NCBI GenBank assembly: GCA_018817595.1
Contig: JAHITU010000024.1
Span: forward strand, 11,155 to 75,154
Length of the DNA: 64,000 nucleotides
Origin: Patescibacteria group bacterium
GTDB lineage: Bacteria; Patescibacteriota; Minisyncoccia; Phycocordibacterales; UBA12079
Direction of reading: 5' to 3'
This document shows positions 4,266 through 51,508 of the stretch, piece after piece. The notes beneath the pieces are model-generated. The model was not told where the DNA came from and searched no databases. It worked only from the letters and a program-made list of their open reading frames with translations. Every line of letters begins with the position of its first letter. The stretch's first letter is position 1. Position numbers and translations under genes: made by a program.

Positions 4266-4512
4266 ATTTAATTCACAAAATTAAGAGCAGTCATCCGAAG
4301 ATGACTGCTCTTAATAGAGAAATGCTTGGCACAGATAGCCCTAGAATAACTCTAGGTGAGTGCGGTGAACGGACCACCACGGTGATTCGGAAACACTTGC
4401 TCTCTTTTATTGCATTTTAGCTAGGTTATTGCACCAAGGATTCCTCCTATGTTCATTATACACCAATTTAAAATTAACAAGCAAATCAATTGTGAATAAC
4501 TCAACCATTAAA
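4266..4512 (-). ncRNA. Candidate structured leader or small RNA between two terminators, upstream of the O-antigen-ligase/TPR gene
   Basis: Minus-strand TATAAT at 4455-4460. Locally GC-rich (about 50%) core at 4320-4440. A 13-bp hairpin capped by a UUCG tetraloop (4284-4313 on minus: aagagcagtcatc-UUCG-gatgactgctctt). Long-range pairing ccttggtgca...tgtgccaagc. Ends at the 4228-4265 terminator. No protein-coding potential. Confidence 0.3.
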
Positions 4513-6622: not shown

Positions 6623-6716
6623 GATAATTAGTTAAAAGTTTGTAAAGTCCATAAAGTCAAAAGTCAAAAATTTGCAAAGCAAATTTTTTCTTAATTTAAA
6701 ATTTAAAATCTAAAAT

Positions 6717-7349: not shown

Positions 7350-7442
7350 TTATAACAAAAAACCCTTAAATTGCGACAAAGGACGGTCGCGAAGCGACCG
7401 TCCTTCCTAATTTTCTAAAAACCTAATTTCCTAATCCCTATC

Positions 7443-10194: not shown

Positions 10195-10238
10195 CATAAT
10201 TATTTGGAAAGTAGTAGGTGGAAAGTAGAGAGTGGGAG

Positions 10239-10261
10239 AAAATTTGCTTCGCAAATTTTTT
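10239..10261. promoter_or_regulatory. AT-rich palindrome AAAATTTGCTTCGCAAATTTT (one of at least 11 copies), flanked by complementary purine-rich and pyrimidine-rich arms
   Basis: Dyad AAATTTGC-n3-GCAAATTT between rplF and rplR. The flanking ggtggaaagtagagagtggg and ccaccttctaccttctacg are mutually complementary. Confidence 0.5.
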
Positions 10262-10292
10262 CCACCTTCTACCTTCTACGTTCTACCTTCGA

Positions 10293-10826: not shown

Positions 10827-10905
10827 AATGTTTTAGCTTATTAGCTTATAGCTGTTAGCTTTTAGGAAAAATTTACTCTGTAAATTTTCCTTGTTAATTC
10901 TAGAC

Positions 10906-11030
10906 CTGCCTACCGGCAGGCAGATTGCTTCGTCGTGACCTCCTCGCAAAGACGAAAATCTTTGCTTTTTGAAACGAATTTTGCTTTGCAAAATTCGTCT
11001 CTGCGAGGAGCCTGCGACGAAGCAGTCCAG
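10906..11030. repeat. GC-rich composite palindromic intergenic repeat of about 125 bp, between rpsH and rplF
   Basis: cctgcctaccggcaggcag + attgcttcgtcgtgacctcctcgca ... tgcgaggagcctgcgacgaagcagtccag. Nested inverted repeats (gcttcgtcg/cgacgaagc, cctcctcgca/tgcgaggag, cgaatttt/aaaattcg). About 60% GC. Confidence 0.65.
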
Positions 11031-11045
11031 TATTTTTATTTTAAA

Positions 11046-14405: not shown

Positions 14406-17400
14406 TTATAAACCTAGTCTTTCTAACCAACCAAATTTCTTTTCAAAGTTAGAGAAAATAATTTCTACAACATCTTGCTTTTTTTGAGGTGTTAATAAGG
14501 TGTAGTCTTTTGAGATAGATAGATTACCTTGAGAATCCTTGGACTGAACATTAAAACGATAAACAGTAGCTGGTTTTAGATTACCCAATACGGTTGTATG
14601 ACGATAAACAAGATCTTCTCTCAATTCACTACTTACTACAAATTCAGGGTTAATGGATGCTCCTTCTTGATAAAAAACTTGAGAGGTTGCCAACTCATCA
14701 GTTTGCCAAGTAATAATAGTTTGAATTTTTTTACCTTCTGAAGATACAGCTGATTCTGTTCTTAATTGTAATATCTGAGGAGGAATTACATCATCCACAT
14801 TATTAAATTCAGGAATAGTATGAGTAATTAACTCTCCGCTTTGAGTGGTTGATTTTAGACGTACAAAATATGTGGTTCCTCCCTCTAAATCTTCTATGGT
14901 AACCTCATGAGTAATACTCAGTCCTGCAACAGATTTTGTTTTTAATCTATCCTTTTGCAATTCTCCTTGATGATATGGAGTATATTCAATTTCTGTTGTT
15001 GATTCTACTGAAGTTTCCCATACAAATGTAGCTGAATGATCTTCTACATCCTTAACAGACCATTTAGTAATTTCTGGTACTTCAGCATTGGTTTTAAAAA
15101 CAAAATCTTTAGATTGAGCAATAGGTCCTACCTGTGATTTAGATTTTAATTTGTAGTGATATGTTGTACTTGGAGCTAAGTTAGAGAGAACCACAATATG
15201 AGAAGTTGTCAGCTCTTCTGCTTCTCCTCGTGTCTCTGTATATGGTTTACTTTTATTCAAATTATATTCAGCCTCTGTAGCTAACTCAATTAATGAGTTA
15301 GCTGGTTTATCAGTTCCCCAAGAAATGATAGCTGAAGACGAAGTCACCTTAACATTCGGTTCAGAACTTAAAAGTGGAGCTGGGATATATTTTGATAAAT
15401 CTTCGATAGTTTGAGTAGTTAAAACCAAGTTCTCTTCTAATTTTTGTACTGAAACCTGTCCTGCCATTTTTGAGAAAATTGAATTAACTTTTTGAGTCGC
15501 TAACTGCAATAGAGATTCTTGAGCTGTCTTAACTGTGCTACTTGTGGTTATAACAGGAGTTTCTTGAATATCTTCAATTTCTTGAGTGTCTTTCTCCACT
15601 CCTTCAAGAGAAGATAAAGTGGTGAAAGAAGCCTGGGGTGATTCAGCTTTATTACCTGAACTATCAATAGAAATAACTTTATAGAAATATTGATTTGAAG
15701 GGTAAAGTTTTGTTAAAGTTATTTTATGATTTCTACTCGTATTCAATGACATACCATTTAATAGCCCGTATTCTGGACCTGTACCATACTGAACTCCTTC
15801 ATTCGCGTCCTCGTTAGTAGCCCAAGTCACAGTAGCTGTAGTTGCACCAACATCAACTTTAACATCACTAATTACAGGAGCTTTTCTGTCAGTAACAGGA
15901 CAAGAAGCTCCTCCCCCTCCACCACCACTTGAAGCAGCGACACAAAAAGTTCCATTCCAAGAAGTATTAGAACCACAATAACTAGAACCAGCCCCTGCAC
16001 TAGCAATTCCCTCAGCTCTCGCAGCTTCTTCTCGTATGACCACAGCAGCCTCTTCAGACAAGGCTCCTAAAGTAGTAAAGAATGTTTCTGCACTAGTAGT
16101 AGCGTTCGAATTAGCATCAGTGGAAAGCACTCTGAAATAATATTTAATCTCTTCAGTTAAGCCAGATAATTTAACTGAGTGTGAAGTATCCAGAGTTGCC
16201 TTTGAAGAGGAGGCTGTATAGACTCCTGAAGTGGTTCCATAATCAACAACAGAATTTGAAGCTTCATCTGTTATCCAAGTAATGTACGCGAAAGTATCCC
16301 CAATAGTTGAAGCACTTGGATCAGTTGTAATATTAGGAGCAGTTATATCTGACGAATCTGTTGTGGTAAAGGTCCATCCCGCTCCAGCATTATCATCAGT
16401 TCTTGTATTAGAGTTGGAATCGGTACTTTTTAATCTTATGTAATAGGTGGTACCTGCTGTTAAGCCAGTTATATCAAAAGAATGGTTAGAGTTGTAGTTG
16501 TTGTTAGATTCTGTAGTTCCATAGGAATTAGATATTCCGTATTCTAGTGTTGAAGTAGCCACTTCACTGGTCGTCCAAGAAACAGTGGCTGTGGTATCTC
16601 CTATAGCAGTAATATCTGTATCACTATCAAAAGTAATTGTAGGAGCGGTCGAATCTTGAGTAGTAGTCAGACTATAATATGCAACTTCTCCATTAATAAC
16701 ATTTTTATCATTAGCTGTTCCTGAACTTACATAATAGTAATATTTAGTCCCTGCTGTTAAACCACTCACAGTCACTGAGTGTGAAGCCACTGAATCAGCT
16801 GAACCAGTTTGAGTAGCACTGGATAAATCTGAGTTAGTTGAATAATAAACATAAGAACTAGCTACAGTATCTGTAGTCCAAGTAATCACAGCTGATTCAT
16901 TATTTATAGTATCTGTAGTTACAGCAGAGATAGATGGACCTGCTAGAGTATCAAAAGTAAAACCATTATCTCCTGGAACTTTAGTAGCTGTATTATTATT
17001 AATATCCGTTGATTTAACCTGGTAATAATACGTAGTGTCTGGAGTTAAACCAGTCAAGACGATACTATGTTGTCCTAGGCCAGCAGCTGTATTTAACATA
17101 GTAGCTTTTCCAACATAAGGGGCATCTGTGAAGTCAGCTCCTGTAGCTGTAATATATTCTACTCTGGAATCGGCTAGCTCATCTGTATCCCAAGTAATAG
17201 TAGCTGACTGAGTAGTAATATTAGAAGCTGTAGTATTAGTAATAACAGGTTCAACAGCTTCTACTCCTCCCCCTCCTTCTGATCCGTCTTGAGTACCGTT
17301 AGCTGTTCCTGCAATAGCTGAAGAGTAAGCTGAAATATTTCCATCGGCATCAATTGAAAGAACTTTGTATTGATGAGTAGAATCAGCACTAAGACTTCTA

Positions 17401-20282
17401 TCCACATAATAATTCAAAGTTCTATCTGTAATAGTTGATTCTAATGAATAGTTAATTCCATCAGTGGCATGATAAACCTTGTAGGAACCAAAACCAGGAC
17501 CTGGATTATCAACAACTCCCCAAGTTAAAAACAAATCATAAGTCGCAGGAGTCACATTAACATTAGAGATATCTTGAATAACAACATTAGCAGGTGTATT
17601 GGGAGTAGTAGCATTAAGAACAGAAGATTCATTTCCATAAACATCTCTGAATTTAACATAAACAGTATCTGGATCAGTTGTGCTTTGGGTATCACTAGTT
17701 GAATATGATTCCCATGAAGCTCCTGCAAAACCAGAATCTAAAGAAATCATCATTTCTTTGTCTGAATCATCTGTAGCTGCCAAAGTCAAAGTAGCTGGAC
17801 TGGTAGAATTATCTACAATGACAGAAGTTGATGTAGGGGCAGTAGTATCTAAAATACCGGCTATGGTAGTAGAAGCCACGGTATTATTAGCCGCTTCTTT
17901 ATCGTCAAAGGTTGCTCTCATTTGAAAACCTGTTGTATACAAATCAGCCACAGTAGTTGAAGCTATCCATGTTGCTGTATAAGTTAAATATGAATCTTCT
18001 AAGACTTTGTTATCTGTGTATCCATCAGAGTTGTCATCAATCACTTCCCCACTACCTGGGGCTACACCATAAATAATTGATGAAGTAGCAATAGAATTCC
18101 AAGAAGATCCATTGTAATATTCAAAAGTAGGTGTTACATAATTAGGGATAACAGTTCCACTGGTTGTATCGGCATCTTTAATTTCATAAGAAATGTCTAC
18201 CACTCCATCTGTTCCTTGTACTGCTGTGAAAGTTCCGACTAAAGGAGCTCCATTAGCCACATAGATAGGAATAATATTATCAACCGTAGGTGAAGTTAAT
18301 CCAGGTTCAATCACTACTTTATATTGAAACCACTGATCATTAGATCCGTCTTTTAGAGCTGTAGGGATTACTGTAGTGTCACAAGCAACAGAACTTGTTA
18401 ATTTAGTACAACCGCTGGTTAAAAAGTTAGGAGTGGATGATGCTATTTCAGACCAAATAGCTGAATCTAAACCGACAGCAGAAGTGGCTGTTCTTAAATA
18501 CATTTTAACTTGTGAATTAGTTGGTAGAGTTGTATTCTCTGTCCAATTAATTCCTGCCATTACATTAGCAACTGCTTCTGTATTATATTTAGAAGAGATT
18601 AAATTTTCATTATTTTCAAAATAAGTATAATTAACTTTAATCTGATCAATTTCCGGAGTTGCGGCACTATCAGTTGTTGATAAATCCATCGCAAAATCTA
18701 AAGTAGTAGTTGTTCCAGCTGTAAACCCTCCACTAGTTGACCAATCTGCAGAATTCAATGCTTCCAATACTGTTTTAGACATTCCTTGAGATTGTAAATT
18801 AGCTAAAGAGGATAAGGCCCAGGCTGAACCAGTCCAATATTTCCAGGTTGTTCTTCCGTCGAAAGATACTAGATATTTTATATCTGTGTTAGTTGGAGTG
18901 GTTTGGGTTAAATCTACGTCTGTGATTGCAGAATAATTTGATACATCTATTTGAGTGGTATTTGTTGTAATTATGTAATATGGTGTTATTGGATAAGGAG
19001 AACTATAACTACTAATATCCATCATTTCTATTTCTGCTATAGAAATCGTAGTTCCACTTGAAACTGGAGCTGTGACATTTATTCGATAATAATTATATGC
19101 AATAGTATTCCCTATATCATATGTCTTCCATTCATGATATACCCAATCAGTAACATTACTCTGTGTATCAAGAGTAACCCAATTAGATCCATCATTTGAA
19201 CCGAGAAAAGTCCAATTCTTTGGCATTGTTTCATCTACTGAAAGATCTCCGGTCATACGATACCTTTTTATAATTTTAGTCTCTGGGAAAAGATATTGAA
19301 TCCAATGATTTAAACCTTGATTAAATGTTCTCCAATGAGTAGTTAAATTATTATCAAAAGCTTTGGTGGCATCATTACCGCCCGCAACATAATAAATACT
19401 AGCTGTCGCTGTTCCTCCATTACATAAATCATTTGAATAATTAATTACTGTTCCTTGTAATTTCCCAACCCCACCAACAATATCTGTTTTAGATGAATCC
19501 TCTTGTGTGTAATCTCCCTCTGTTGTGAAATCTATAGTGCTTGAAGCTGTTTGTGCTATTACTGTAATATCAGTTCCAGCATTAACACCAGAAGATTTAG
19601 AATAATATTTATCCCAATCTGATTGGTTAGATGTATGATTAGCTGTAGTTACAGTATCGACTCCTCCCACCCATGAAGCTTGAGTAAAATTATAGGTAGC
19701 AGCTTTAACAACAGAAAGTGGATATATTAAAGAAGAAACTAAAACAAAAATTATTCCAATAATTCCAATAGAAGTTTTTATAGTTGTTTTTATTCTGTTC
19801 TGTTTATGAAAATTAATCAATTGTTGTTCAAGAGAAATAGCTTGTTTTTTATCTACTTCTTCCCCTCTTTTGATTTGATTAATAATTTTATCTAAATCTA
19901 AATATTCAGTAGGACAGTGTTGTTTAAACTCATTTAAAATTTCATTCTCAACTAGAACTAAAGAATCTTTAGAAGATCTAAATAACAAAGCAAGAGAATA
20001 AATCAGTCTACGATAAGAATCAATTTCATCTTTGTTTTGAATTCTTTTGTATTCTTTTTTTAATAATTCTCCAACGATAGGAACAGAGCTATCTGTAATC
20101 TGAGAAATTATAATTAAAGATAAAATAAAAGCCAAAAGAATAATAAAAAAGATTATTCCTCCTACTAAATTCCATAGATAAAACAAAGTAAATACAGTTA
20201 GTAAAAACGTAATTACAGACAACAAAAAAGATACGTAAAAAGCCATCTGTTTTCTTAATTTAAACAAATATTTATTCATCAT
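14406..20282 (-). CDS. Giant (1958 aa) membrane-anchored surface protein with an F5/8-type-C (discoidin)-like domain and at least 8 fibronectin-III-like repeats
   Basis: N-terminal hydrophobic helices. A discoidin-like segment (NLTTHWRTFNQGLNHWIQYLF...NWTFLGSNDGSNWVTL). Repeated units of about 90 aa of the form TATITWDTDELADSRVEY...LTGLTPDTTYYYQVKSTD. Thr/Ser/Gly-rich. Confidence 0.7.
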   Translation of the reverse strand: MMNKYLFKLRKQMAFYVSFLLSVITFLLTVFTLFYLWNLVGGIIFFIILLAFILSLIIISQITDSSVPIVGELLKKEYKRIQNKDEIDSYRRLIYSLALLFRSSKDSLVLVENEILNEFKQHCPTEYLDLDKIINQIKRGEEVDKKQAISLEQQLINFHKQNRIKTTIKTSIGIIGIIFVLVSSLIYPLSVVKAATYNFTQASWVGGVDTVTTANHTSNQSDWDKYYSKSSGVNAGTDITVIAQTASSTIDFTTEGDYTQEDSSKTDIVGGVGKLQGTVINYSNDLCNGGTATASIYYVAGGNDATKAFDNNLTTHWRTFNQGLNHWIQYLFPETKIIKRYRMTGDLSVDETMPKNWTFLGSNDGSNWVTLDTQSNVTDWVYHEWKTYDIGNTIAYNYYRINVTAPVSSGTTISIAEIEMMDISSYSSPYPITPYYIITTNTTQIDVSNYSAITDVDLTQTTPTNTDIKYLVSFDGRTTWKYWTGSAWALSSLANLQSQGMSKTVLEALNSADWSTSGGFTAGTTTTLDFAMDLSTTDSAATPEIDQIKVNYTYFENNENLISSKYNTEAVANVMAGINWTENTTLPTNSQVKMYLRTATSAVGLDSAIWSEIASSTPNFLTSGCTKLTSSVACDTTVIPTALKDGSNDQWFQYKVVIEPGLTSPTVDNIIPIYVANGAPLVGTFTAVQGTDGVVDISYEIKDADTTSGTVIPNYVTPTFEYYNGSSWNSIATSSIIYGVAPGSGEVIDDNSDGYTDNKVLEDSYLTYTATWIASTTVADLYTTGFQMRATFDDKEAANNTVASTTIAGILDTTAPTSTSVIVDNSTSPATLTLAATDDSDKEMMISLDSGFAGASWESYSTSDTQSTTDPDTVYVKFRDVYGNESSVLNATTPNTPANVVIQDISNVNVTPATYDLFLTWGVVDNPGPGFGSYKVYHATDGINYSLESTITDRTLNYYVDRSLSADSTHQYKVLSIDADGNISAYSSAIAGTANGTQDGSEGGGGVEAVEPVITNTTASNITTQSATITWDTDELADSRVEYITATGADFTDAPYVGKATMLNTAAGLGQHSIVLTGLTPDTTYYYQVKSTDINNNTATKVPGDNGFTFDTLAGPSISAVTTDTINNESAVITWTTDTVASSYVYYSTNSDLSSATQTGSADSVASHSVTVSGLTAGTKYYYYVSSGTANDKNVINGEVAYYSLTTTQDSTAPTITFDSDTDITAIGDTTATVSWTTSEVATSTLEYGISNSYGTTESNNNYNSNHSFDITGLTAGTTYYIRLKSTDSNSNTRTDDNAGAGWTFTTTDSSDITAPNITTDPSASTIGDTFAYITWITDEASNSVVDYGTTSGVYTASSSKATLDTSHSVKLSGLTEEIKYYFRVLSTDANSNATTSAETFFTTLGALSEEAAVVIREEAARAEGIASAGAGSSYCGSNTSWNGTFCVAASSGGGGGGASCPVTDRKAPVISDVKVDVGATTATVTWATNEDANEGVQYGTGPEYGLLNGMSLNTSRNHKITLTKLYPSNQYFYKVISIDSSGNKAESPQASFTTLSSLEGVEKDTQEIEDIQETPVITTSSTVKTAQESLLQLATQKVNSIFSKMAGQVSVQKLEENLVLTTQTIEDLSKYIPAPLLSSEPNVKVTSSSAIISWGTDKPANSLIELATEAEYNLNKSKPYTETRGEAEELTTSHIVVLSNLAPSTTYHYKLKSKSQVGPIAQSKDFVFKTNAEVPEITKWSVKDVEDHSATFVWETSVESTTEIEYTPYHQGELQKDRLKTKSVAGLSITHEVTIEDLEGGTTYFVRLKSTTQSGELITHTIPEFNNVDDVIPPQILQLRTESAVSSEGKKIQTIITWQTDELATSQVFYQEGASINPEFVVSSELREDLVYRHTTVLGNLKPATVYRFNVQSKDSQGNLSISKDYTLLTPQKKQDVVEIIFSNFEKKFGWLERLGL

Positions 20283-20939: not shown

Positions 20940-21002
20940 TTTATTTATCTTATAGGATATTTTTTAATAAAAATTTACAAATTTTTCTTATTATTTATAG
21001 AC

Positions 21003-21128
21003 TTGCCTGCCCGACAGGCAGATTGTTTCGTCGTGACCTCCCCGCAAAAACGAAAAGCTTATCTTTTCGTAACGAATTTTACTCAATAAAATTCGTCTCT
21101 GCGAGGAACCTGCGACGAAGCAGTCCAG
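21003..21128. repeat. GC-rich composite palindromic repeat between rplX and rplE, co-linear with the 10906-11030 copy
   Basis: cttgcctgcccgacaggcag + attgtttcgtcgtgacctccccgca...tgcgaggaacctgcgacgaagcagtccag. Confidence 0.65.
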
Positions 21129-21159
21129 AATCTTAAATCCTAAATCTTAATTCTTAAAT

Positions 21160-21468: not shown

Positions 21469-21555
21469 ATTAATTTAGTTATTTAGTTATTTAGGTTTTA
21501 GTTGTTTAGGTATTAAATTGACTTCGTCAATTTCCCCTAATACCTAATCACCTAT

Positions 21556-21927: not shown

Positions 21928-21991
21928 TTTATTAGTTATTAGCTTATAGCTTTTAGGTTTTTAGGAAAAACTTGCGAAGCAAATTTTTACT

Positions 21992-22011
21992 CCTGCCCGC
22001 CGGCAGGCAGG
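21992..22011. repeat. 20-nt GC palindrome CCTGCCCGCCGGCAGGCAGG, fused to the AT-rich palindrome upstream of rplN
   Basis: Near-perfect dyad. The same unit occurs at 22328-22347, 51325-51344 and 53875-53894, and in extended form at 29455-29490, 34105-34144 and 42171-42216. Confidence 0.6.
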
Positions 22012-22027
22012 TTATAGGCTTTTGAAT

Positions 22028-22291: not shown

Positions 22292-22362
22292 ATTATTATT
22301 TAAAATTTGCGAAGCAAATTTTTACTCCTGCCTGCCGGCAGGCAGGTTATAGACTTTCGACT

Positions 22363-22557: not shown

Positions 22558-22605
22558 AACAACTTTAAAATTGAATCTTACCTTAAATATCCTTTTAAAT
22601 CAAGC

Positions 22606-23037: not shown

Positions 23038-23147
23038 ATTATTACAATTAGTTGAAAGTCCTTAATGTCGAAAGTCGAAAGTCTTTTTTAAAAATTTACG
23101 AAGTAAATTTTTACTTTATGGACTTTATGGACTTTACAGACTTCTCA

Positions 23148-24265: not shown

Positions 24266-24355
24266 GATTTTAGTTATTTAGTTATTTGGGTCATTAGGTT
24301 TTAGGAAAAATTTACTTCGTAAATTTTTTCTTAAATCTTAAATCATAAATATTAT

Positions 24356-24840: not shown

Positions 24841-27800
24841 TTAAATCTCTTGGAAACTTGGAACCAACATAAATTCCAAAGAAACTGATTCTGAAGGAGC
24901 CCCTACTTCTGTTCCGTTCTGACAAGTTAAAGTAAATTCTGATTTGTGTTCAATAGCAGGAGTAGTAAATGAACCAGAAATTATTCCACTTTCAGATTGG
25001 GCTTGAGTGTAATTGTACGTAGCAATAAATCCATCCGGTCCTTCTAGTGTACAAGAAGTAGCATTGCCAATTCCACTCCAAATGATTTCTCTAGTTTTTC
25101 CTTTGACTACCCAATAAATATTATCATCAGTTCTAAATCCTAAATTAGTTGGAGTTCCTGTAATAGTTTTTGATGCAGGAATAATAGGAGTGGGGCAAGC
25201 AGATACAGGAGGAACCACAGCATTACACAAACCGTCACAACCAATAATTCCAGTACCTGTCATATAACAAGAGTTTGTTCCCGCAGTACAAACTGTACCG
25301 TACCCAACAGGATTAGCAGGAACTGAGGCTGAACAAGTTCCGTCACACTGGATAGTTCCTGAAGCTGTTGTGCCACAAGCATTAGCAGCTGAAGTACAAG
25401 CATCACCTAGATCATCAGGATTATCAGGAGCTGAAACAGAACAATCACCCGTACATTCAATTTGTCCATAATTTACATCCCCACAAGAATTAGCATCTGA
25501 TTCACAAGGGTCTCCTAAACCAGCAGGTACAGTAGGGACAACGGCTGAACAGGTTCCATTACAAGCAATCGTTCCGCTCCCTTTATCTCCGCATAGATTT
25601 GGAGAAGATTGGCAATAACTTCCATAACTGGCTACACAACAAGATACTGTATTACAGCTCTGATATTGAATATTTGAACCTGCACAATACGCTCCCCCTC
25701 CTGATGGGTATGGATTTGAACAAGTTCTTGTTGAATATTGAGTTCCTCCTCCACAAACAACTGTACAAGGAGACCAAGCAGACCAAGCAGACCAACCTCC
25801 GTTTACAGCAGGGCTAACCACTGTAAAATAAACAGGAGCATTAGCATAGGGTGTACCTGAAAAATCAGAGATCCTGAAATTATAGTGAACTCCTTCATAT
25901 TGCCCATACTGCACCCAATGACTATAGGGGGTAAATCCATAATTTGGCAATAAGGAATTACACACTTCAGGGCCTGTCCAATTATTCCTTTCCATGTACC
26001 AACCACTATTAAGTTGCTCAGCTTTATTACTACAATAAAGATCATTATTAAATTCTTGTGGATAACCATAATAAGTTTTAAACCATCGCTCATCGTCCCA
26101 ATGAAACCAAGTGTAATAAGACCCTGGGGAACTAGGAGCACTTGCACTAAAAGTATAATAAGAACTACCCCTTCCTATATAAAAAGAACCTGCAGGATAG
26201 GGTATAATAGCATAATACTGACTACTAGTAACAGAATTCCAACAAACAATAGAACTTTCATACATTGTAGCTGTAATTGTTTCATAAGGGTTATAAGTAC
26301 TTTTGTTTAAGCTAATATTCCAAGTAAATGAATGATCCCAAAACCGATCTGCTCCACCAGCCCTAACAGCATAATTAATTCTATAGGAAGCAGCGTCGGC
26401 TACATTATAAGAACTCCCAAAAAAAGCAAAAGCTTGCAAAAAAACAAAAAAAACAATAACAAAAGTCGGAAATTTAAACCCTTTGTTTTTAAAATAAACT
26501 AAACTCACCAAAATTAAAAACCCTACACCTAATAACAGGTATACTAATAAAGAATTTCCTCTGTCTAGATCAAAATCAAATTTTGTATAGGAAAGAACTT
26601 CTCCTGAGTCATTATCAATTACTTGGATATTTACTTTTGGAAAGAGACAGTCTTTGTTAATTTGAAAATCTATAATCTGATTCAGGGAAAATTGATCAAT
26701 TTCAACCTTTAAAATATCTCCACAACTGTTATTATTTTTATCTACAACTTCGATTTTAGCTATTACATTTTCTACAAAAGAAGGTCCTAGTCTCGAACCA
26801 TAAAAAGAGTCAGCTGAACCACTGTAAAATAAGTTTATCTTGGCTATCTCTCCAGATTCATAAATTGTTTTATCGAGTGAAAGATTAGGAATAGTACTTC
26901 CTTTTCCTCTCAAAACATAATGAGCTGAAACAAAATCAACAGGAATATTTAAACTGTTATTAAAAGTTAATTTAACATCATAGGCTTGAGATTTTTCTGG
27001 TTTAGGTATTTCCAAAGAAAAAGTTTTCTTCTCTAAAGCTTTTATTTCAATGTTATCTTGTGAGAGTTGAGGAGTTTCAACTTTTTCTCCAAAAGTTGAT
27101 CTATAAAAAGTTTCGAAAGCAGGAATCAAAGACAAATCTTTATCAGAGTGGTTTTCTATCTCACAATTTAATTTCAATATTTCTTCTGGATTAACATCCA
27201 CGCCTTGGTCTAAAGTATAATGAGGGTCCAATTCTTCTCCTTCGATATTAAAAAAACAACTTGGTTTTATGATTTCCACAAATGAATTATCTCCTTCAAG
27301 CGTAACTTCACCTAAACTACCTAACCCTAAAATTAAACCTTCTTTATTTTTACTGACTATATATAATTGATATATTCCATTCAAATAATCAGGAGCATCA
27401 TATTTAATTTTTTTAATTATTTCTTCATTTTCTCCTAAATTGATTATTTCAGAATAAATCTTTTCATCAATAATTGATTGTGTTTGTAAACCATCATTCT
27501 CATTTATTAAAATTAAGTGCACCCCATACTGAATATCTGATTGAATCATTTCCCCGTTAGAAAGAACAAAAGATAAATCAAATTTATTATTTATTTGTTT
27601 TATTATTTTAGAATCATATATATTAAGACTTGATATCATTACTATTTCAGGAGTAATATCTTCTCCTAGTTCTTTTGTTGAATCCTCAATATATTTTTTT
27701 ATTAGATCTTGTTCATCTATAGAATCATTCTCTCCAAGCATCATTGAATTCATAAGATTAATTTCTTCTTGAGTTAATTCTTTTGGTGCACCAAAGCCTT

Positions 27801-27879
27801 CTTGTGCTGAAACATTTAGAGTACAATACCCTAAAATTAAAACAGTACAAAACAAAAAATATGTTAATATTTTTTTCAT
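24841..27879 (-). CDS. Secreted/membrane protein (1012 aa) with a thrombospondin type-1 repeat and four tandem Cys-rich modules of about 40 aa
   Basis: Signal peptide MKKILTYFLFCTVLILGYCTLNVSA. Two mid-protein hydrophobic helices. GGWSAWSAWSPCTVVCGGGTQYSTRTCSNP matches the W-x-x-W-x-x-W / CSVTCG TSR consensus. It is followed by repeats of the form CxSxANxCGxxxxGxIxCxGxCSAxxPxxP. Confidence 0.7.
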   Translation of the reverse strand: MKKILTYFLFCTVLILGYCTLNVSAQEGFGAPKELTQEEINLMNSMMLGENDSIDEQDLIKKYIEDSTKELGEDITPEIVMISSLNIYDSKIIKQINNKFDLSFVLSNGEMIQSDIQYGVHLILINENDGLQTQSIIDEKIYSEIINLGENEEIIKKIKYDAPDYLNGIYQLYIVSKNKEGLILGLGSLGEVTLEGDNSFVEIIKPSCFFNIEGEELDPHYTLDQGVDVNPEEILKLNCEIENHSDKDLSLIPAFETFYRSTFGEKVETPQLSQDNIEIKALEKKTFSLEIPKPEKSQAYDVKLTFNNSLNIPVDFVSAHYVLRGKGSTIPNLSLDKTIYESGEIAKINLFYSGSADSFYGSRLGPSFVENVIAKIEVVDKNNNSCGDILKVEIDQFSLNQIIDFQINKDCLFPKVNIQVIDNDSGEVLSYTKFDFDLDRGNSLLVYLLLGVGFLILVSLVYFKNKGFKFPTFVIVFFVFLQAFAFFGSSYNVADAASYRINYAVRAGGADRFWDHSFTWNISLNKSTYNPYETITATMYESSIVCWNSVTSSQYYAIIPYPAGSFYIGRGSSYYTFSASAPSSPGSYYTWFHWDDERWFKTYYGYPQEFNNDLYCSNKAEQLNSGWYMERNNWTGPEVCNSLLPNYGFTPYSHWVQYGQYEGVHYNFRISDFSGTPYANAPVYFTVVSPAVNGGWSAWSAWSPCTVVCGGGTQYSTRTCSNPYPSGGGAYCAGSNIQYQSCNTVSCCVASYGSYCQSSPNLCGDKGSGTIACNGTCSAVVPTVPAGLGDPCESDANSCGDVNYGQIECTGDCSVSAPDNPDDLGDACTSAANACGTTASGTIQCDGTCSASVPANPVGYGTVCTAGTNSCYMTGTGIIGCDGLCNAVVPPVSACPTPIIPASKTITGTPTNLGFRTDDNIYWVVKGKTREIIWSGIGNATSCTLEGPDGFIATYNYTQAQSESGIISGSFTTPAIEHKSEFTLTCQNGTEVGAPSESVSLEFMLVPSFQEI

Positions 27880-28699: not shown

Positions 28700-29454
28700 A
28701 TTTTTTTTCTAAAAAATTAAAACTAATAATGAATTATTATCATATCCCCAAGACTTAATTGAATGGTCAAAGAAAATCAACCACCAAGAAATCTCATTGG
28801 TTTTATGATTTTACGACCTTTATTTTAGTATCTAAAAATACCATAACTATATAATATCATTATATGAAATGAAAAATATATGAAAACTGTGGATAAAATG
28901 ATGTCGGCTCAAAACAAAAGAAATCTTTGCTGAAAAACTTTTTCCTTCGGAACAACTTAAAGACATCCGACCTCATTTTTTATAATATTAAAATTAATAT
29001 CTAAAGATGACAGTTGTTTTAATTAAGAGGTCGGATGTCACCCAAACCACTCCCAGTGGGTCGGGTGAAATTTTTTCATAACTAAAGTAAAGAACAGTAA
29101 TTGTTTTGTTAAAAGTTTTAATGCTTGTATTTTATTTAGGTTTAACTTTTTTAAGGGATGGAAGAAGACGAAAAGCTTTAGCTTTTCGTCCACGAATTTT
29201 GCTTCGCAAAATTCGTCTTTACGAGAAATGAAGCGTAGCGAAATGACGAAGTAATCCAGAAATAAACAAAAAAGATAAACCTCAGTCTTACTTTTTCACT
29301 AAAAGTTTTAATGCAAGGATTTCTTTTATTTTAAACCTTAGTAGGGTGACGGGCGAGGCTTCGCCTCGCCCGTCTATAAATAAAAAAATCAACGGCTATG
29401 CTCGTAGCCATTGATTTTTTGTTTATTTTTTTAACTTTACAGACTTTAAACTTA

Positions 29455-30201: not shown

Positions 30202-30450
30202 TTAATTAAAATTATTTTTCAGTAAAGAACCTATATGGATACTATTCATATTATCTATAAGATAGAACATAATATCGTCTAAAGTGTTCAGAGAAAATAT
30301 TCCATCACCTTCAATATAAACAATACCTCCAGATTCTTTCCAAATTCTTTCAGCTTCTAGTTGAATAGCCATATCATCTTCAAATAAATCTAAATTCACT
30401 TGAAATTCTTGTCCTTCTTTTCCATGAAATAAAACGATACGATTTTCCAT
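30202..30450 (-). CDS. Small hypothetical protein (82 aa), paralogous to the adjacent 97-aa ORF
   Basis: MENRIVLFHGKEG...LDLFEDD, versus the neighbour's MESKEIVFYGKND...ILLEDTD. Confidence 0.4.
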   Translation of the reverse strand: MENRIVLFHGKEGQEFQVNLDLFEDDMAIQLEAERIWKESGGIVYIEGDGIFSLNTLDDIMFYLIDNMNSIHIGSLLKNNFN

Positions 30451-30525: not shown

Positions 30526-30819
30526 TCAAGCGAGAAGAGATTTAAAATAACGAATTAGTGATTCATTTTCACAGGAAGCAAAATCTGGCCCACTGTCCCT
30601 TTTTAATGAAAGCATTTTTTGCTTTTCTTTTTCTAAATATTCAACCAACCCTTCCCTACTTTGGAAAACGTAATCTGCTTCACCACAAGGAACGGAAACA
30701 ATGCTATTCAATCTTAGAAAAAGATCCTCCGCCATTTTTAGGCTATCTGTATCTTCCAACAAGATAACAGATAAAGGCGGATCATTTTTTCCATAAAAAA
30801 CGATCTCTTTAGATTCCAT
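30526..30819 (-). CDS. Small hypothetical protein (97 aa), tandem paralog of 30202..30450
   Basis: Shared N-terminal pattern ME..IV.F.GK and an acidic second half. Confidence 0.4.
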   Translation of the reverse strand: MESKEIVFYGKNDPPLSVILLEDTDSLKMAEDLFLRLNSIVSVPCGEADYVFQSREGLVEYLEKEKQKMLSLKRDSGPDFASCENESLIRYFKSLLA

Positions 30820-31519: not shown

Positions 31520-31635
31520 AATTATATTAAGTTATTAGGAAATTAGGTTGTTAGGTTGTTAGGAAAAAATTTACGAAGTAAATTTTTTTCTTAAATCCTA
31601 AATCTTAAATCCTAAATCTAAATTATTTTAATAAT

Positions 31636-32127: not shown

Positions 32128-32389
32128 ATATTTAGGTTATTAGCTTATTAAGATTTTAGATTATTAGGAAAAAACTTGCTTAGCAAATTTTCATAATCTA
32201 TACCCAATTTACTAACTTCCTTATAAAATTTAAAAAGTCTTGAATAATCAAGACTCAGAGAAAAACACATCTACATATTTAATATATTAGTGTTTCGACC
32301 TAAATAGGGTTTATAAAATGGATTTTTAAAAGTATCCTTTTAAACCTATCTTCTCTGATCTTTACGAATACTATTTAATCATTTTTTAT

Positions 32390-32439: not shown

Positions 32440-32856
32440 TCAAAAATAAAGATCAACAGGCTTCCTTTTTTCAAAAAGGGATTCATTTGATGAATGCTTT
32501 TTCAAAAGCTTCTTTAGAACATACCCGAGATCTTCAGCAAATTCACTTTCTTTTCCAAAAAGGATTTGTATTTGTTCTGAAGACAAATTCATTTCTTTAA
32601 AAACATCCCATGATGTTTTCTCAACAGACAATGATACCCAAACCAAAAACTCAGCAATTTCTTCTGAAGAATTTAAAAAAATATCTATTTTATTCCAGAA
32701 AACAGAGCATCCCATTCGTCCAGTATTTTCCCAAATAGTTGCTGCTAAATACTCCGGTTTGTATTCACCCCTCAAGAAACCTTTTTCCAAATCAATGGAT
32801 TTAGGAATGCTATTACTCCCAGCTCTGGGAATAAAAACTACAACATTTTCATTCAT
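32440..32856 (-). CDS. Hypothetical protein (138 aa)
   Basis: ORF only; no recognisable motifs. Confidence 0.35.
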   Translation of the reverse strand: MNENVVVFIPRAGSNSIPKSIDLEKGFLRGEYKPEYLAATIWENTGRMGCSVFWNKIDIFLNSSEEIAEFLVWVSLSVEKTSWDVFKEMNLSSEQIQILFGKESEFAEDLGYVLKKLLKKHSSNESLFEKRKPVDLYF

Positions 32857-33504: not shown

Positions 33505-33612
33505 ATTTTTGTATAAAAATTAATAATTACTATTCTATTAGTATAGTAATCTCCTGTATAAAGTCAATGGATTTTCGTTATTTTAAATAAATATAAATTT
33601 TCTAACAAACCC

Positions 33613-33888
33613 TTGCAAAAAACCGAAATATAAATATAATAGTCATCAGCAGTTCAAGAGAGGCTGATGGTCCAGCAAAAGGCGAGGTCCGAATCTCGGG
33701 GACAATACTCCCTTTAAACTCTCTTTTTCTTCGATCAAGACAAGTCTGGTTGCCGAGGTCATTCCCTAAAATGACTGACGGTCTCCAAAGGCACCCCGCA
33801 ACAATAGTGGTGTCTACATCGCAATCAAACCATCTTGATCAAATCCCTCTTGGATACCTTTTCACGGTATCCTAGAGGGATTTTTTTT
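33613..33888 (+). ncRNA. Candidate small RNA 1: promoter TTGCAA-N16-TATAAT (33613-33640), about 240-nt transcript, terminator 33845-33888
   Basis: Good -35/-10 match. GC-enriched structured body (ggctgatggtcc..gaggtccgaatctcgggg). Ends with a 14-bp interrupted stem ccctcttggatacc/ggtatcctagaggg followed by T8. Stop codons in all frames. Confidence 0.45.
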
Positions 33889-34207
33889 ATCTATTTTCTT
33901 ATTTTTCAAAGGACGAAGCCTCGCTTCGTCCTTCTTCTTCACCCTAAAAAGTTAAACCCAAATAAAATACAGACATTAAAATTTTTAATGAAGAGTTACT
34001 GTCTTTTGCTTTAGCAAAAGGAAAATTTCACCCGACCCATACTCCCACAACAAAGAATATTTGTATAATATGGTTTTTAAAATGGTTGGGCTTGGGTTTG
34101 GATCCTGCCTGCCCACGCCTGCCGGCGCGCAGGGGTAGGCAGGTTTAAAAACATATTATACAAATATTCTAACAACTCATTTTATCCACAACTTCTTTTA
34201 AAATTTC

Positions 34208-34500
34208 TTGACTTTTATTTAAATATATTATATCCTTATATTTAGAAATAAAGGTAAATACAATTTCCGGGAGAATAGATGAAAAGGATTTATAGTACCT
34301 TTTCACAACAACAACTTTATAATTTCTCCCAAATGACCTCTCCTTTAGAGTCTTTCCTCTTCGGGAGTAAATGCATTCGAAAATGTTTTCATGAGAACAT
34401 TTTCATGTATAAGGAATTATAGCCAATTCCTTGTATAGCTGAATAGGTCATAATACCCCCAAAGATGTCTGGTGAACATCATGCGGGGGTATTTTATTTT
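34208..34500 (+). ncRNA. Candidate small RNA 2: TTGACT -35 at 34208-34213, a structured body of about 250 nt, terminator 34453-34500
   Basis: Internal hairpins gaaaatgtt/aacattttc and tataaggaatt/aattccttgtata. Terminator ataccccc...gggggtat followed by a T-rich tract. Confidence 0.35.
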
Positions 34501-34547
34501 ATGTTATTTAGTAATTTAAATTTATATTAATTAATTTTTAAAAATCC

Positions 34548-47333: not shown

Positions 47334-47457
47334 TTCTGGACTGCTTCGCAAGCTCGCAGAGACGGTCACAAAGCGACCTTTACGGTTCGCTTTCAGCGAA
47401 CCGTCCCTGCCTGACGGCAGGCAGGTTTGCGAGGAGTTTGCGACGAAGCAATCCAGA
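47334..47457. repeat. GC-rich composite palindromic repeat with the CCTGCCTGACGGCAGGCAGG module placed centrally
   Basis: ttctggactgcttcgcaagctcgcagagacgg...cctgcctgacggcaggcagg...gcgacgaagcaatccagag. The internal minus-strand and plus-strand ORFs here are spurious. Confidence 0.6.
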
Positions 47458-51478: not shown

Positions 51479-51508
51479 GTAAATTATTATTCCATTATAA
51501 AAAACATT

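What the first reader, a model, noticed from the sequence alone, without database searches (positions are those of the whole stretch)
21470..21545. Shine-Dalgarno sequences essentially absent, while AGGAGG-like runs lie displaced 60-90 nt upstream in some 5' UTRs
The 20-25 nt upstream of the rplX, rplN, rpsQ, rplP, rpsC, rplV, rpsS, rplF, rpsH, secY, rplO and ssb start codons are A/U-rich (for example CTAAATAACTAAATAACTAAATTAAT-ATG for rplX, and CTACCTACCAAAAAAAT-ATG for ssb) and lack GGAGG. Plus-strand tandem TTAGG/TTAGC repeats give CCUAA/GCUAA repeats in the mRNAs. Polypurine tracts of the form GGUGGAAAGUGGAGGGUGGAGGG occur further upstream, for instance 54690-54715 before ssb. Together this suggests either non-SD initiation or an unusual standby-site mechanism.
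Basis: seen in the sequence. Interest (0 to 1): 0.5.

Follow-up and report, generated by a model that had tools for sequence, protein, structure and literature searches.

The report
SD-less translation plus palindromic spacer repeats
This ultra-small (CPR/Parcubacteria) bacterium starts translation without Shine-Dalgarno sites, a trait already reported for its lineage, and the "displaced AGG-rich runs" are one arm of a family of small hairpin-centred repeat elements that come and go between ribosomal-protein genes, not ribosome standby sites.

Summary
Only 3 of 52 window genes carry an SD core (AGGA/GGAG/GAGG) at -20..-4. G is about 7% there, with A at -3 (81%) and -6 (77%). The TTAGG-type tandem repeats and the polypurine tracts exist where stated.

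The standby-site reading is not supported. SD absence is lineage-wide: 71 of 1702 ribosomal-protein genes (4.2%) in 141 related Parcubacteria loci have an SD core. Published work reports anti-SD loss in about half of Parcubacteria.

The AGG-rich runs are the 5' arms of a repeat family. Each element has a 25-30-nt core hairpin, (G)GAGAAAAAUYKC-N3-GMRAUUUUUCUC(C), flanked by 7-8-nt tandem repeats. The upstream repeats contain G and little C; the downstream repeats contain C and little G.

- The window holds 12 copies, all intergenic, in both orientations.
- The same gene junctions are 4-28 nt long in the closest relatives, or carry elements with different arms.
- Only 12 of 32 5' arms contain any SD core, and only 15 of 32 arm pairs are complementary.

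Best reading: SD-independent initiation on open, A-rich start regions, plus REP/MITE-like intergenic palindromic repeats that leave the start region unpaired. The 16S 3' end could not be retrieved. The element family itself appears undescribed in the sources searched and is modestly interesting.

The parts
21469..21555 (-). rplN-rplX intercistronic spacer (87 nt), the flagged region; one complete repeat element plus the rplX start region
21534..21555 (-). 5' arm of the element (mRNA AUAGGUGAUUAGGUAUUAGGGG); G-containing and C-free; starts right after the rplN stop codon
21515..21533 (-). core (apex) hairpin AAAUUGAC-GAA-GUCAAUUU
21473..21514 (-). 3' arm: AACUAAAU/ACCUAAAU octamer array (TRF period 8, 5.4 copies), G-free; ends 4 nt before the rplX AUG
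24266..24355 (-). rpsS-rplV spacer element: GAUUUAA repeats, core 24306-24329, CCUAA/ACUAA repeats
23038..23147 (-). rpsC-rplP spacer element: AAAGUCC repeats, core 23089-23113, GACUUUC repeats
22292..22362 (-). rpmC-rpsQ spacer: GC-rich hairpin CCUGCCUGCCGGCAGGCAGG (22327-22346) plus core 22302-22323
21928..22027 (-). rpsQ-rplN spacer: GC-rich hairpin (21992-22011), core 21966-21988, CCUAAAA/GCUAUAA repeats 21931-21965
20940..21159 (-). rplX-rplE spacer (220 nt): GAUUUAA repeats 21129-21159, 108-nt GC-rich branched element 21021-21128, GC hairpin 21004-21020, degenerate core 20969-20988
10827..11045 (-). rpsH-rplF spacer (219 nt): 108-nt GC-rich branched element 10923-11030, GC hairpin 10905-10922, core 10865-10890, GCUAA repeats 10830-10864
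10198..10292 (-). rplF-rplR spacer element: UAGAAGG repeats 10262-10292, core 10239-10261, CUACUUUCCAC repeats 10206-10238; true rplR start is ATG at 10197
6623..6716 (-). adk-map spacer element with non-complementary arms (UUUAAAU repeats / core 6666-6689 / GACUUUU repeats)
7379..7442 (-). after secY: AUUAGG repeats followed by a GC-rich hairpin AAGGACGGUCGC-UUC-GCGACCGUCCUU, then a promoter-like site for adk
31520..31635 (-). rplJ-rplL spacer element: GAUUUAG/GAUUUAA repeats 31590-31622, core 31564-31589, CCUAACAA repeats 31526-31563
32128..32200 (-). upstream of rplJ: core 32169-32192 and CCUAAUAA-type repeats 32130-32168
55533..55557 (-). core hairpin copy in a 3' UTR (after the TatD-like gene, before a terminator), so not tied to a start codon

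Best explanation
Two separate things are superimposed.

(A) Translation start. This is a CPR bacterium (Parcubacteria/Paceibacteria, near 'Ca. Campbellbacteria'). It initiates translation without SD:anti-SD pairing. Start regions are A/U-rich and G-depleted, have A at -3 and -6, and are predicted to be unpaired. This resembles the 'Kozak-like', structure-tuned initiation shown experimentally in Bacteroidia. It is a lineage trait.

(B) Repeat elements. Many intercistronic spacers have been invaded by a clade-specific family of small repeat elements. Each is built around a conserved A/U-rich core hairpin, (G)GAGAAAAAUYKC-N3-GMRAUUUUUCUC(C).

The elements behave like REP/BIME- or MITE-type intergenic palindromic repeats. 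They are multi-copy, strictly intergenic, found in both orientations, and gained, lost or swapped between close relatives. They are co-transcribed inside the ribosomal-protein operons.

My inference is that they are tolerated there for three reasons:
- The core folds on itself.
- The arm next to the start codon is G-poor.
- The last 13-26 nt before the AUG stay outside the predicted hairpin, so the open start region needed for SD-free initiation is preserved.

Shown: the anatomy, copy number, insertion polymorphism, SD statistics and predicted accessibility. Inferred: the absence of a functional anti-SD in this genome, the way the elements spread, and their neutrality or tolerance.
For: SD-free initiation:
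- 3 of 52 genes have an SD core. G is 0-12% at every position from -21 to -1. A is 81% at -3 and 77% at -6.
- 71 of 1702 (4.2%) ribosomal-protein genes have an SD core across 141 Parcubacteria loci with GC content from 28% to 57%.
- Short, element-free spacers in relatives also lack SD, for example L002 'TAG aatt ATG'.
- Literature: the anti-SD motif is detected in only 48% of Parcubacteria 16S (PMC9297842). A at -3 and -6 and low structure drive SD-independent initiation in F. johnsoniae (PMC6847099).
- The start region -15..+12 has unpaired probability 0.57, against 0.43 in coding sequence (p=1e-6).

Repeat family:
- The core pattern gives 27 matches in the window (both strands) against 3.3 expected.
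- The covariance model finds 12 sites in the window, all intergenic. It finds at least 11 in the 13.4-kb locus L085, and hits only in the window's own clade among 98 sources.
- The stem covaries: UUUGC/GCAAA, UUUAC/GUAAA, AUCGC/GCGAU, UUGAC/GUCAA.
- An identical 24-nt core lies on opposite strands at 24306-24329 and 31564-31587.
- Arm composition over 32 elements: 5' arm G 20% and C 6.5%; 3' arm C 23% and G 5%. G>C in 28 of 32 5' arms, and C>G in 31 of 32 3' arms.
- Period-7/8 arrays are confirmed by TRF.
- Insertion polymorphism at identical junctions, and different arms at the same junction in W and L085.
- Independent short-read contigs, 100% identical to the window, end inside or next to element cores, at 6663/6700, 10867 and 54682.
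- The window has 80 perfect hairpins against about 6.5 in shuffles, and 55 of them lie in the 17% of sequence that is intergenic.

Tolerance:
- 13-26 nt before each AUG lie outside the predicted hairpin.
- Element-bearing genes have unpaired probability 0.68 in the start region, against 0.60 for element-free translation genes (p=0.013).
Against: - The 16S rRNA 3' end of this genome or of a close relative could not be obtained. No 16S is present in the window or in any of the 163 loci. Loss or masking of the anti-SD is therefore inferred from mRNA statistics and from the literature.
- No transposase, target-site duplication or empty/filled pair at strain level was found. The closest relatives are only about 84% identical in DNA. 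'Mobile' therefore rests on presence/absence and on arm swapping between species.
- The Y1 (IS200-like) transposase in the window is flanked by a different hairpin repeat.
- The strict G-versus-C asymmetry of the arms and their 7-8-nt periodicity are not explained by a purely selfish-element model.
- In 19 of 24 informative cases the antisense strand would pair its arms better than the mRNA sense strand does. This hints at transcript-level selection, so some function is not excluded.
- The elements are concentrated upstream of translation genes: 11 of the 12 core sites.
Confidence: 0.78

Rival explanations
1. Functional 'cistron punctuation' module. The hairpin and its arms would be selected RNA elements within SD-free polycistronic mRNAs. 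The self-folding core would insulate the downstream start region. The G-free C/A/U repeat array would act as an unstructured landing pad (for example for bS1 or the 30S subunit), or as a target for Rho or an RNase. The G-rich array plus hairpin would protect the upstream cistron's 3' end after processing.
For: - Elements sit almost only before translation genes, which are presumably highly expressed.
- Start regions of element-bearing genes are predicted to be more open: 0.68 against 0.60, p=0.013.
- The arm next to the AUG is always the G-poor one (31 of 32).
- The arms pair worse in the sense strand than in the antisense strand, 19 against 5, as expected if strong mRNA structure is selected against.
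- The stem covaries.
Against: - The same genes in the closest relatives do without any element, with 4-28-nt spacers.
- Copies occur in both orientations. A palindrome with the purine-rich arm first reads the same way on either strand, so the G-poor arm lying next to the AUG is an automatic property, not evidence of selection.
- Half of the elements have non-complementary, apparently chimeric arms.
- One copy lies in a 3' UTR, far from any start codon.
- There is no expression data.
Confidence: 0.17
2. The purine-rich runs would be displaced SD or standby sites that capture 30S subunits through anti-SD pairing 60-90 nt upstream. The hairpin might bring them next to the AUG, as in the split ribosome-binding sites of phage T4 genes 25 and 38.
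For: A few copies have good SD-like strings at the 5' foot of a hairpin whose 3' foot is near the AUG: AGGUGAU before rplX, and GGAGGGUGGAGGG before ssb.
Against: - Only 4 of 32 5' arms contain AGGAG/GGAGG, and 20 of 32 contain no 4-nt core.
- 17 of 32 elements have arms that do not pair.
- The elements are absent from orthologous junctions in relatives.
- There is no SD enrichment at -64..-100.
- The lineage as a whole shows no SD usage, and its group is reported to lack the anti-SD motif often.
Confidence: 0.03
3. Altered SD:anti-SD pair. The CCUAA/GCUAA repeats next to the start codons would pair with a changed 16S 3' tail.
For: CUAA/ACUAA shows a positional peak at -11..-8 in ribosomal-protein genes of close relatives, about 15% of genes.
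Against: - 3' arms of different copies in the same genome have unrelated units (CCUAA, GACUUUC, CAUUCUA, CUACUUUCCAC, ACUUUUA).
- Most genes have no such motif.
- The ACUAA peak is mostly the shared 3' end of the elements themselves.
Confidence: 0.02
4. The hairpins are intrinsic terminators or attenuators, or internal promoters, that subdivide the operon.
For: The core has an A-tract, stem, U-tract layout. A conserved promoter-like site does exist before rpmC, and there are clear promoters before rpsS and rpsN.
Against: - The terminator scan flags none of the core hairpins. The stems are A/U-rich, and the U-tract is consumed by pairing with the A-tract.
- Promoter-like matches in the region are no more frequent than in shuffles, 68 against 77.
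- Genuine terminators in the window look different, with long GC-containing stems.
Confidence: 0.04

Closest known systems
SD-independent, 'Kozak-like' initiation of Bacteroidia (Flavobacterium johnsoniae; Baez et al. 2019, PMC6847099), and anti-SD loss in a Parcubacteria subgroup (Tsurumaki et al. 2022, PMC9297842)
   Same: Almost no SD upstream of genes. A-rich, G-poor start regions with low structure and A at -3 and -6. The window belongs to the phylum-level group in which anti-SD loss was reported.
   Different: Bacteroidia keep the anti-SD but sequester it. For this genome the state of the 16S tail is unknown. No ribosome profiling exists for any Parcubacteria.
REP/BIME elements of Gammaproteobacteria, and REPINs mobilised by RAYT (Y1/HUH) transposases
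   Same: Short imperfect palindromes. High copy number. Strictly extragenic. Located between genes of one operon and co-transcribed. Both orientations. Mosaic combinations with other hairpin modules. A Y1 transposase gene flanked by hairpin repeats exists in the same window.
   Different: The Y1 gene here is flanked by a different hairpin (CACTTGGACACCCGGTGTCCAAGTG), not by this core. The core is A/U-rich rather than GC-rich. The arms are 7-8-nt tandem arrays with opposite G/C content, which REPs lack. No conserved GTAG-type cleavage tetranucleotide was seen.
Small transcribed MITE-like repeats: Correia/NEMIS (Neisseria), ERIC/IRU (enterobacteria), BOX and RUP (pneumococcus), RPE (Rickettsia). 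This comparison rests on my own knowledge of these families.
   Same: 70-150-nt elements. They insert next to or between genes and fold into hairpins within mRNAs. Their presence varies between strains or species. BOX elements are modular, with a variable number of tandem subunits.
   Different: No terminal inverted repeats of fixed sequence and no detectable target-site duplication. Only the central about 30 nt are conserved, while the arm sequences differ from copy to copy. The host is a genome-reduced CPR bacterium, and the sites lie inside the core ribosomal-protein operons.
Ribosome standby sites and split ribosome-binding sites (tisB standby site; T4 genes 25 and 38). This comparison rests on my own knowledge.
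   Same: A purine-rich tract far upstream of the AUG, sometimes at the foot of a hairpin whose other foot is near the AUG.
   Different: Those systems need SD:anti-SD pairing or a structured start region to bypass. Here there is no SD usage, the start regions are open, and the tracts are dispensable in relatives.

Membership tests
SD-independent initiation in an anti-SD-lacking Parcubacteria lineage | SD motifs not enriched at -20..-4 across the genes | tested here: met
   3 of 52 genes in the window; 71 of 1702 in 141 related loci
SD-independent initiation in an anti-SD-lacking Parcubacteria lineage | 16S rRNA 3' tail lacks CCUCC, or the tail is sequestered | not testable with these tools
   No 16S in the window or in any fetched locus. 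Larger source contigs were not returned. Only literature support is available.
SD-independent initiation in an anti-SD-lacking Parcubacteria lineage | Membership of the uL1-lacking Parcubacteria group, which overlaps the anti-SD-less lineages | tested here: inconclusive
   No rplA or rplK lies beside rplJ in the window or in any locus of its clade, and there is no RplA match in about 1.9 Mb of loci. Whole genomes were not available.
Kozak-like / structure-tuned initiation (Bacteroidia type) | A enriched at -3 and -6; start region less structured than coding sequence | tested here: met
   A at -3 81%, A at -6 77%. Unpaired probability 0.57 against 0.43, p=1e-6. The function was not tested.
REP/BIME-type repetitive extragenic palindromes | Short imperfect palindrome; many copies; only extragenic; both orientations | tested here: met
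   12 core sites in 64 kb, all intergenic. An identical core lies on both strands. Short-read contigs break inside or next to cores.
REP/BIME-type repetitive extragenic palindromes | Cognate RAYT (Y1 transposase) gene flanked by the same repeat | tested here: not met
   The Y1_Tnp gene at 40604-41287 (Pfam E=1e-7) is flanked by a different hairpin. No Y1 gene was seen next to a core copy in the window.
MITE | Fixed terminal inverted repeats and a target-site duplication | tested here: not met
   The element ends are variable tandem arrays. Only 15 of 32 arm pairs are complementary. No duplication is visible at filled against empty junctions, although the relatives are too diverged (about 84% DNA identity) for a strict test.
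MITE / mobile repeat in general | Presence/absence polymorphism at orthologous sites | tested here: met
   For example the rpsQ-rplN spacer is 100 nt in the window, 4 nt in L084 and L002, and 92 nt with different arms in L085.
Ribosome standby / displaced SD site | SD-like sequence present in the upstream tract of the elements, and SD:anti-SD pairing in use | tested here: not met
   20 of 32 5' arms lack any 4-nt SD core. There is no SD usage in the lineage.
Intrinsic terminator | GC-containing stem followed by a free U-tract | tested here: not met
   None of the core hairpins is flagged by the terminator scan.
Any Rfam RNA family | Match at or near the gathering score | tested here: not met
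   0 matches at gathering thresholds. Only chance-level hairpin matches at E<=1.

The most novel reading that the evidence does not exclude
The elements could be more than selfish repeats. They could be an adaptive 'punctuation' system for SD-free polycistronic mRNAs in a lineage that has lost the anti-SD.

In this reading each module has three parts:
- a G-rich, C-free heptamer array;
- a self-contained hairpin;
- a C-rich, G-free heptamer array.

Such a module would uncouple neighbouring cistrons. It would shield the downstream start region from long-range pairing. It would also offer a periodic single-stranded platform, for bS1 or the 30S subunit, for Rho, or for a processing RNase. Stoichiometry of ribosomal proteins could then be tuned junction by junction and re-tuned quickly by gaining or losing modules.

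The opposite G/C content of the arms, the 7-8-nt periodicity, the sense-strand bias against arm pairing and the more open start regions would then be selected features.
Probability: 0.15. Interest if true: 0.7.

Novelty: new member of a known kind. Interest (0 to 1): 0.33.

Why it matters
**SD absence.** This adds nothing new in principle. It fits the published loss of the anti-SD motif in Parcubacteria and the structure- and A-rich-driven initiation known from Bacteroidia. It does give a clean gene-level confirmation: 4% SD cores in 1702 ribosomal-protein genes from 141 loci. It also shows the A at -3 and -6 signature in a CPR lineage.

**The repeat family.** This is the more useful outcome.
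- An ultra-small, streamlined CPR genome carries a dozen copies per 64 kb of hairpin-centred elements inside its most essential operons. A relative carries 11 in 13 kb. Turnover between species is rapid.
- This matters for annotating and assembling CPR genomes from metagenomes. Short-read contigs break at these cores, and long 'intergenic' gaps in ribosomal-protein markers are real.
- It bears on ideas about genome streamlining.
- If the elements affect translation or mRNA processing, it also bears on how operons are expressed without SD sites.

Tried and rejected
**16S and anti-SD.**
- Looked for the 16S 3' end in the window and in all loci. There was none.
- Tried to extend the window through exact-protein look-ups. 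Only short, 100%-identical contigs were returned.
- Supplements of the anti-SD paper are not held.
- No paper links Campbellbacteria to uL1 loss in the library.

**RNA families and signals.**
- Rfam at gathering and at E<=1 gave nothing meaningful.
- No tRNA or tmRNA.
- The terminator and promoter scan does not explain the cores.

**Arm pairing.**
- Tested whether the spacers are single long hairpins selected in the mRNA. This was rejected as a general rule. Only 15 of 32 arm pairs are complementary beyond shuffles, and antisense pairing is the more stable, 19 against 5.
- I first read 'purine arm always 5' in the mRNA' as strand-specific evidence. I withdrew this, because a palindrome with the purine-rich arm first has that polarity on both strands.

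**Alternative motifs.**
- Considered CCUAA as an alternative SD. Rejected because the 3' arms differ between copies.

**Transposase link.**
- Tested whether the Y1 transposase in the window is the cognate enzyme. Its flanking repeat is different.
- The protein has no PDB or NCBIfam match.

**Literature.**
- Searches for REP, RAYT or palindromic repeats in CPR found nothing relevant.
Full report
**What the window is.** The 64-kb window has about 31% GC, and almost all genes lie on the minus strand. It carries the ribosomal-protein cluster in this order:
- rpsS-rplV-rpsC-rplP-rpmC-rpsQ-rplN-rplX-rplE;
- then three inserted genes (a 1958-aa surface protein and an ABC-transporter pair);
- then rpsN-rpsH-rplF-rplR-rpsE-rplO-secY-adk-map.

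It also carries rplJ-rplL and rpsF-ssb-rpsR. rpsE is followed directly by rplO, so uL30 is absent, which is a hallmark of CPR bacteria (PMC9297842). RplN finds its best relatives among 'Candidatus Paceibacterota/Parcubacteria' metagenome-assembled genomes: L084 97%, L085 and L002 94%, and the complete 'Ca. Campbellbacteria' genome CP011215.1 80%.

**Checking the observation.**
- The quoted leaders, the TTAGG-type tandem repeats and the polypurine tract before ssb are all present as described.
- Only 3 of 52 genes have AGGA/GGAG/GAGG in -20..-4. That is fewer than in any other upstream zone and fewer than in coding sequence (5.8% against 15.9% of 17-mers, p=0.026).
- G is 6.6% in that zone, against 18.5% for the strand. 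A reaches 81% at -3 and 77% at -6.
- Start-codon misassignment cannot explain this. The ORFs used are maximal, and the starts coincide with those of orthologues. Two starts were corrected inward, rplR to 10197 and adk to 7316.
- By contrast, SD-like cores at -64..-100 occur in 6-7 of 52 genes, which is background level.

**SD absence is a lineage trait and is already reported.**
- In 141 related loci with at least 6 mapped ribosomal-protein genes, spanning GC 28-57%, only 71 of 1702 genes (4.2%) have an SD core at -20..-4.
- Relatives with very short spacers have none either, for example 'TAG aatt ATG' and 'TAA gatttatt ATG'.
- Tsurumaki et al. 2022 report that the anti-SD motif CCTCCT is detected in only 48% of Parcubacteria 16S genes, and that the lineages lacking it overlap the uL1-lacking group.
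- In the window's clade no rplA or rplK accompanies rplJ. This fits that group but does not prove membership.
- The A at -3 and -6 signature and the reduced structure of the start region match the SD-independent initiation worked out in Flavobacterium johnsoniae (unpaired probability 0.57 against 0.43 in coding sequence, p=1e-6; PMC6847099).
- I could not obtain a 16S 3' end for this genome or a close relative. The state of the anti-SD is therefore inferred.

**What the 'displaced AGG runs' are.** Printing all upstream regions shows a recurrent architecture in the long spacers, which are 70-220 nt where bacteria usually have 0-30 nt:
- After the stop codon come 3-6 tandem units of 7-8 nt that contain G but hardly any C. 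Examples are GAUUUAG/GAUUUAA, UAGAAGG, AAAGUCC and GGUGGAG.
- Next comes a conserved A/U-rich hairpin, (G)GAGAAAAAUYKC-N3-GMRAUUUUUCUC(C).
- Then come 3-6 tandem units that contain C but hardly any G. Examples are CCUAAAA, GCUAUAA, GACUUUC, CAUUCUA and CUACUUUCCAC.
- Finally come about 5-15 nt of A/U before the AUG.

TRF confirms the arrays. The core pattern gives 27 matches (both strands) in the window against 3.3 expected. A covariance model built from 29 cores finds 12 sites in the window, all intergenic. It finds at least 11 in the 13.4-kb locus L085, and it hits only in the window's own clade among 98 sources searched. The stem shows compensatory variants: UUUGC/GCAAA, UUUAC/GUAAA, AUCGC/GCGAU and UUGAC/GUCAA.

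Over 32 elements the 5' arm has G 20% and C 6.5%, and the 3' arm has C 23% and G 5%. The flagged region, 21469-21555, is one such element: 5' arm 21534-21555, core 21515-21533, 3' arm 21473-21514.

**Why this is a repeat family and not a displaced ribosome-binding site.**
1. Insertion polymorphism. The rpsC-rplP, rpmC-rpsQ, rpsQ-rplN and rplN-rplX spacers are 110, 71, 100 and 87 nt in the window.
   - They are 8, 10, 4 and 8 nt in L084.
   - They are 28, 8, 4 and 15 nt in L002.
   - They are 105, 28, 92 and 152 nt in L085, where the arms at rplN and rplX differ from those in the window.
   - Other relatives carry the same kind of element at other junctions: L002 at rplE and rpsH, L005 at rplV, rplP, rplE and rplR, and L008 at rplV, rplN, rplF, rplR and secY.
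2. Both orientations occur. The loop is UUC or GAA in the mRNA, and an identical 24-nt core lies on opposite strands at 24306-24329 and 31564-31587.
3. Independent short-read contigs, 100% identical to the window, end inside or next to element cores, at 6663/6700, 10867 and 54682. This is the behaviour of multi-copy repeats.
4. Only 12 of 32 5' halves contain any 4-nt SD core, and 4 of 32 contain AGGAG/GGAGG.
5. The arms are complementary beyond shuffles in only 15 of 32 elements. Several are obvious chimeras, for example AAAGUC repeats paired with CCUAA/GCUAA repeats at L085 rplO. A long hairpin that would bring the purine tract next to the AUG is therefore not a conserved feature.
6. One core copy lies in a 3' UTR, far from any start codon.

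A caution on polarity. The purine-containing arm is always 5' in the mRNA. However, any palindrome with the purine-rich arm first has that polarity on both strands, so this is not evidence of strand-specific selection.

**Context: intergenic DNA full of palindromes.**
- The window has 80 perfect hairpins (stem at least 8, loop 3-5), against about 6.5 in shuffles. 55 of them lie in the 17% of sequence that is intergenic.
- Besides terminators and the core family there are three other repeat types:
  - a GC-rich hairpin, CCTGCCTGCCGGCAGGCAGG, in several copies;
  - a 108-nt GC-rich branched element, in the rpsH-rplF and rplX-rplE spacers and elsewhere;
  - a Y1 (IS200-like) transposase gene flanked and interrupted by CACTTGGACACCCGGTGTCCAAGTG hairpins, which is a classical RAYT/REP arrangement.
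- In more distant Parcubacteria the same ribosomal-protein junctions, above all rplN-rplX, hold unrelated 120-180-nt long-hairpin inserts.
- Small palindromic inserts in ribosomal-protein operon spacers are thus widespread in this group.

**How it most likely works.** Translation starts on open, A-rich, G-poor start regions without SD pairing. This is shown statistically, and the mechanism is inferred from Bacteroidia and from the reported anti-SD loss. The elements are co-transcribed passengers.
- Their core folds on itself.
- In the MFE folds of the eight element-bearing spacers examined, the last 13-26 nt before the AUG are unpaired.
- Start regions of element-bearing genes are, if anything, more accessible: 0.68 against 0.60 for element-free translation genes (p=0.013).

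I therefore think the elements persist because they do not disturb SD-free initiation, and possibly insulate it. The way they spread is unknown. No cognate transposase or target duplication was found, and recombination at the conserved core would explain the chimeric arms.

**What remains unexplained.** Three features could reflect transcript-level selection or a function: the opposite G/C content of the arms, the 7-8-nt periodicity, and the better arm pairing on the antisense strand than on the mRNA (19 against 5). The function could be an insulator, a landing pad or a processing site. I give that reading about 15-17%.

**Comparison with known systems.**
- The SD-free initiation belongs with what is known for Bacteroidia and for anti-SD-less Parcubacteria.
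- The elements work like REP/BIME, Correia, ERIC or BOX-type transcribed palindromic repeats, but they fail strict membership tests. They have no cognate RAYT, no fixed terminal inverted repeats and no target duplication. Rfam has no matching family.
- Searches of the paper library for palindromic, REP or RAYT elements in CPR found nothing relevant.
- I therefore class the elements as a new member of a known kind, and the SD observation itself as already known.

**Verdict.** The non-SD interpretation is right but ordinary for the lineage. The standby-site interpretation is not supported. Overall interest is modest (0.33), carried by the repeat family rather than by the SD absence.

Noticed in passing
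window 40566-41378 and 43008-43042 (minus strand): A Y1/IS200-like HUH transposase gene (40604-41287; Pfam PF01797, E=1e-7). It is flanked by perfect hairpins CACTTGGACACCCGGTGTCCAAGTG: two upstream, one downstream, one in frame inside the gene, and one 1.7 kb away. This looks like a RAYT with its REP sequences. The protein has no PDB or NCBIfam match.
   Followed up: partly
window 10923-11030, 21021-21128; related copies near 29150-29260, 51380-51490, 42835-42960: A 108-nt GC-rich branched (Y-shaped) palindromic element, CUGGACUGCUUCGUCGCAGG...GGAGGUCACGACGAAGCAAUC, inside the rpsH-rplF and rplX-rplE spacers and elsewhere. The spacers holding it fold at -84 and -65 kcal/mol. A reversed copy is in L085. 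No Rfam match.
   Followed up: partly
window 22327-22346, 21992-22011, 51325-51344, 47406-47425, 42840-42861, 10905-10922, 21004-21020: A GC-rich hairpin, CCTGCCTGCCGGCAGGCAGG, repeated in many intergenic regions of a 31%-GC genome, often next to the A/U-rich core hairpin (BIME-like mosaics). It is also present in L090 (rplP-rpmC spacer).
   Followed up: no
window 4276-4455 (minus strand): A candidate small RNA of about 170 nt. It has its own promoter-like site (TTGCTT-17-TATAAT) and a strong terminator hairpin, but no ORF. Folding z-score is -6.75. It starts with AUAGGAGGAAUCC. No Rfam family matches.
   Followed up: partly
window 33505-35151: A 1.6-kb stretch without ORFs of 60 aa or more. 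It contains several GC-richer hairpins and one copy of the GC-rich repeat. No Rfam, tRNA or tmRNA hit. It could hold unrecognised RNA genes or a decayed gene.
   Followed up: no
window 22558-22605 and the same junction in L002, L007, L008, L012, L084, L085: The rplP-rpmC spacer is never invaded. It keeps a conserved promoter-like sequence (TTGATT/TTGACT, 16-17 nt, TAAGAT/TAGTAT). This suggests an internal promoter before rpmC within the ribosomal-protein cluster.
   Followed up: no
window 30202-30450, 30526-30819, 32440-32856: These are the only three genes with SD-like sequences at the right distance (GGGAG, AAGGAG, AAGGA). All are small hypothetical proteins with no Pfam match where tested. 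They may be recent acquisitions, or the matches may be chance (3 observed against 1.3 expected).
   Followed up: no
window 14406-20282 and 24841-27879: Very large predicted surface proteins are embedded in or next to the ribosomal-protein cluster. One is 1958 aa with repeated Fn3-like segments. The other is 1012 aa with a thrombospondin type-1 domain (PF00090, E=2e-10), which is unusual in bacteria. An ABC-transporter pair also splits rplE from rpsN.
   Followed up: no
L005 (rplF), L085 (rpsE), L086 (rplX, rpsH, rpsE), L008 (rplF): A 270-350-nt element. It begins TATTTTGCCCACAGATTTGAATTCAGTTTACTGAATTCAAATCTGTGG and ends ...AACAGGGTAATATTTTTCTAATTCGCTNCGCTCRTAAGAAAAATATT-ATG. It sits in ribosomal-protein spacers of several genomes, with two identical 350-nt copies in L086. 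Shorter relatives with the same outer stem occur at rplN-rplX in L032, L059, L060 and L159.
   Followed up: no
L001, L082, L083 against window 6663/6700, 10867, 54682: Short-read (Logan) contigs from run SRR6514274 are 100% identical to the window and end inside or next to the core-hairpin elements. These repeats therefore fragment short-read assemblies of this organism.
   Followed up: yes
window 54715-55275: Ribosomal protein bS6 carries a highly acidic, lysine/glutamate-rich C-terminal extension of about 80 aa (186 aa in total). bS6, bS18 and bS21 form the pocket that sequesters the anti-SD in Bacteroidia, so this may be relevant. It was not examined.
   Followed up: no
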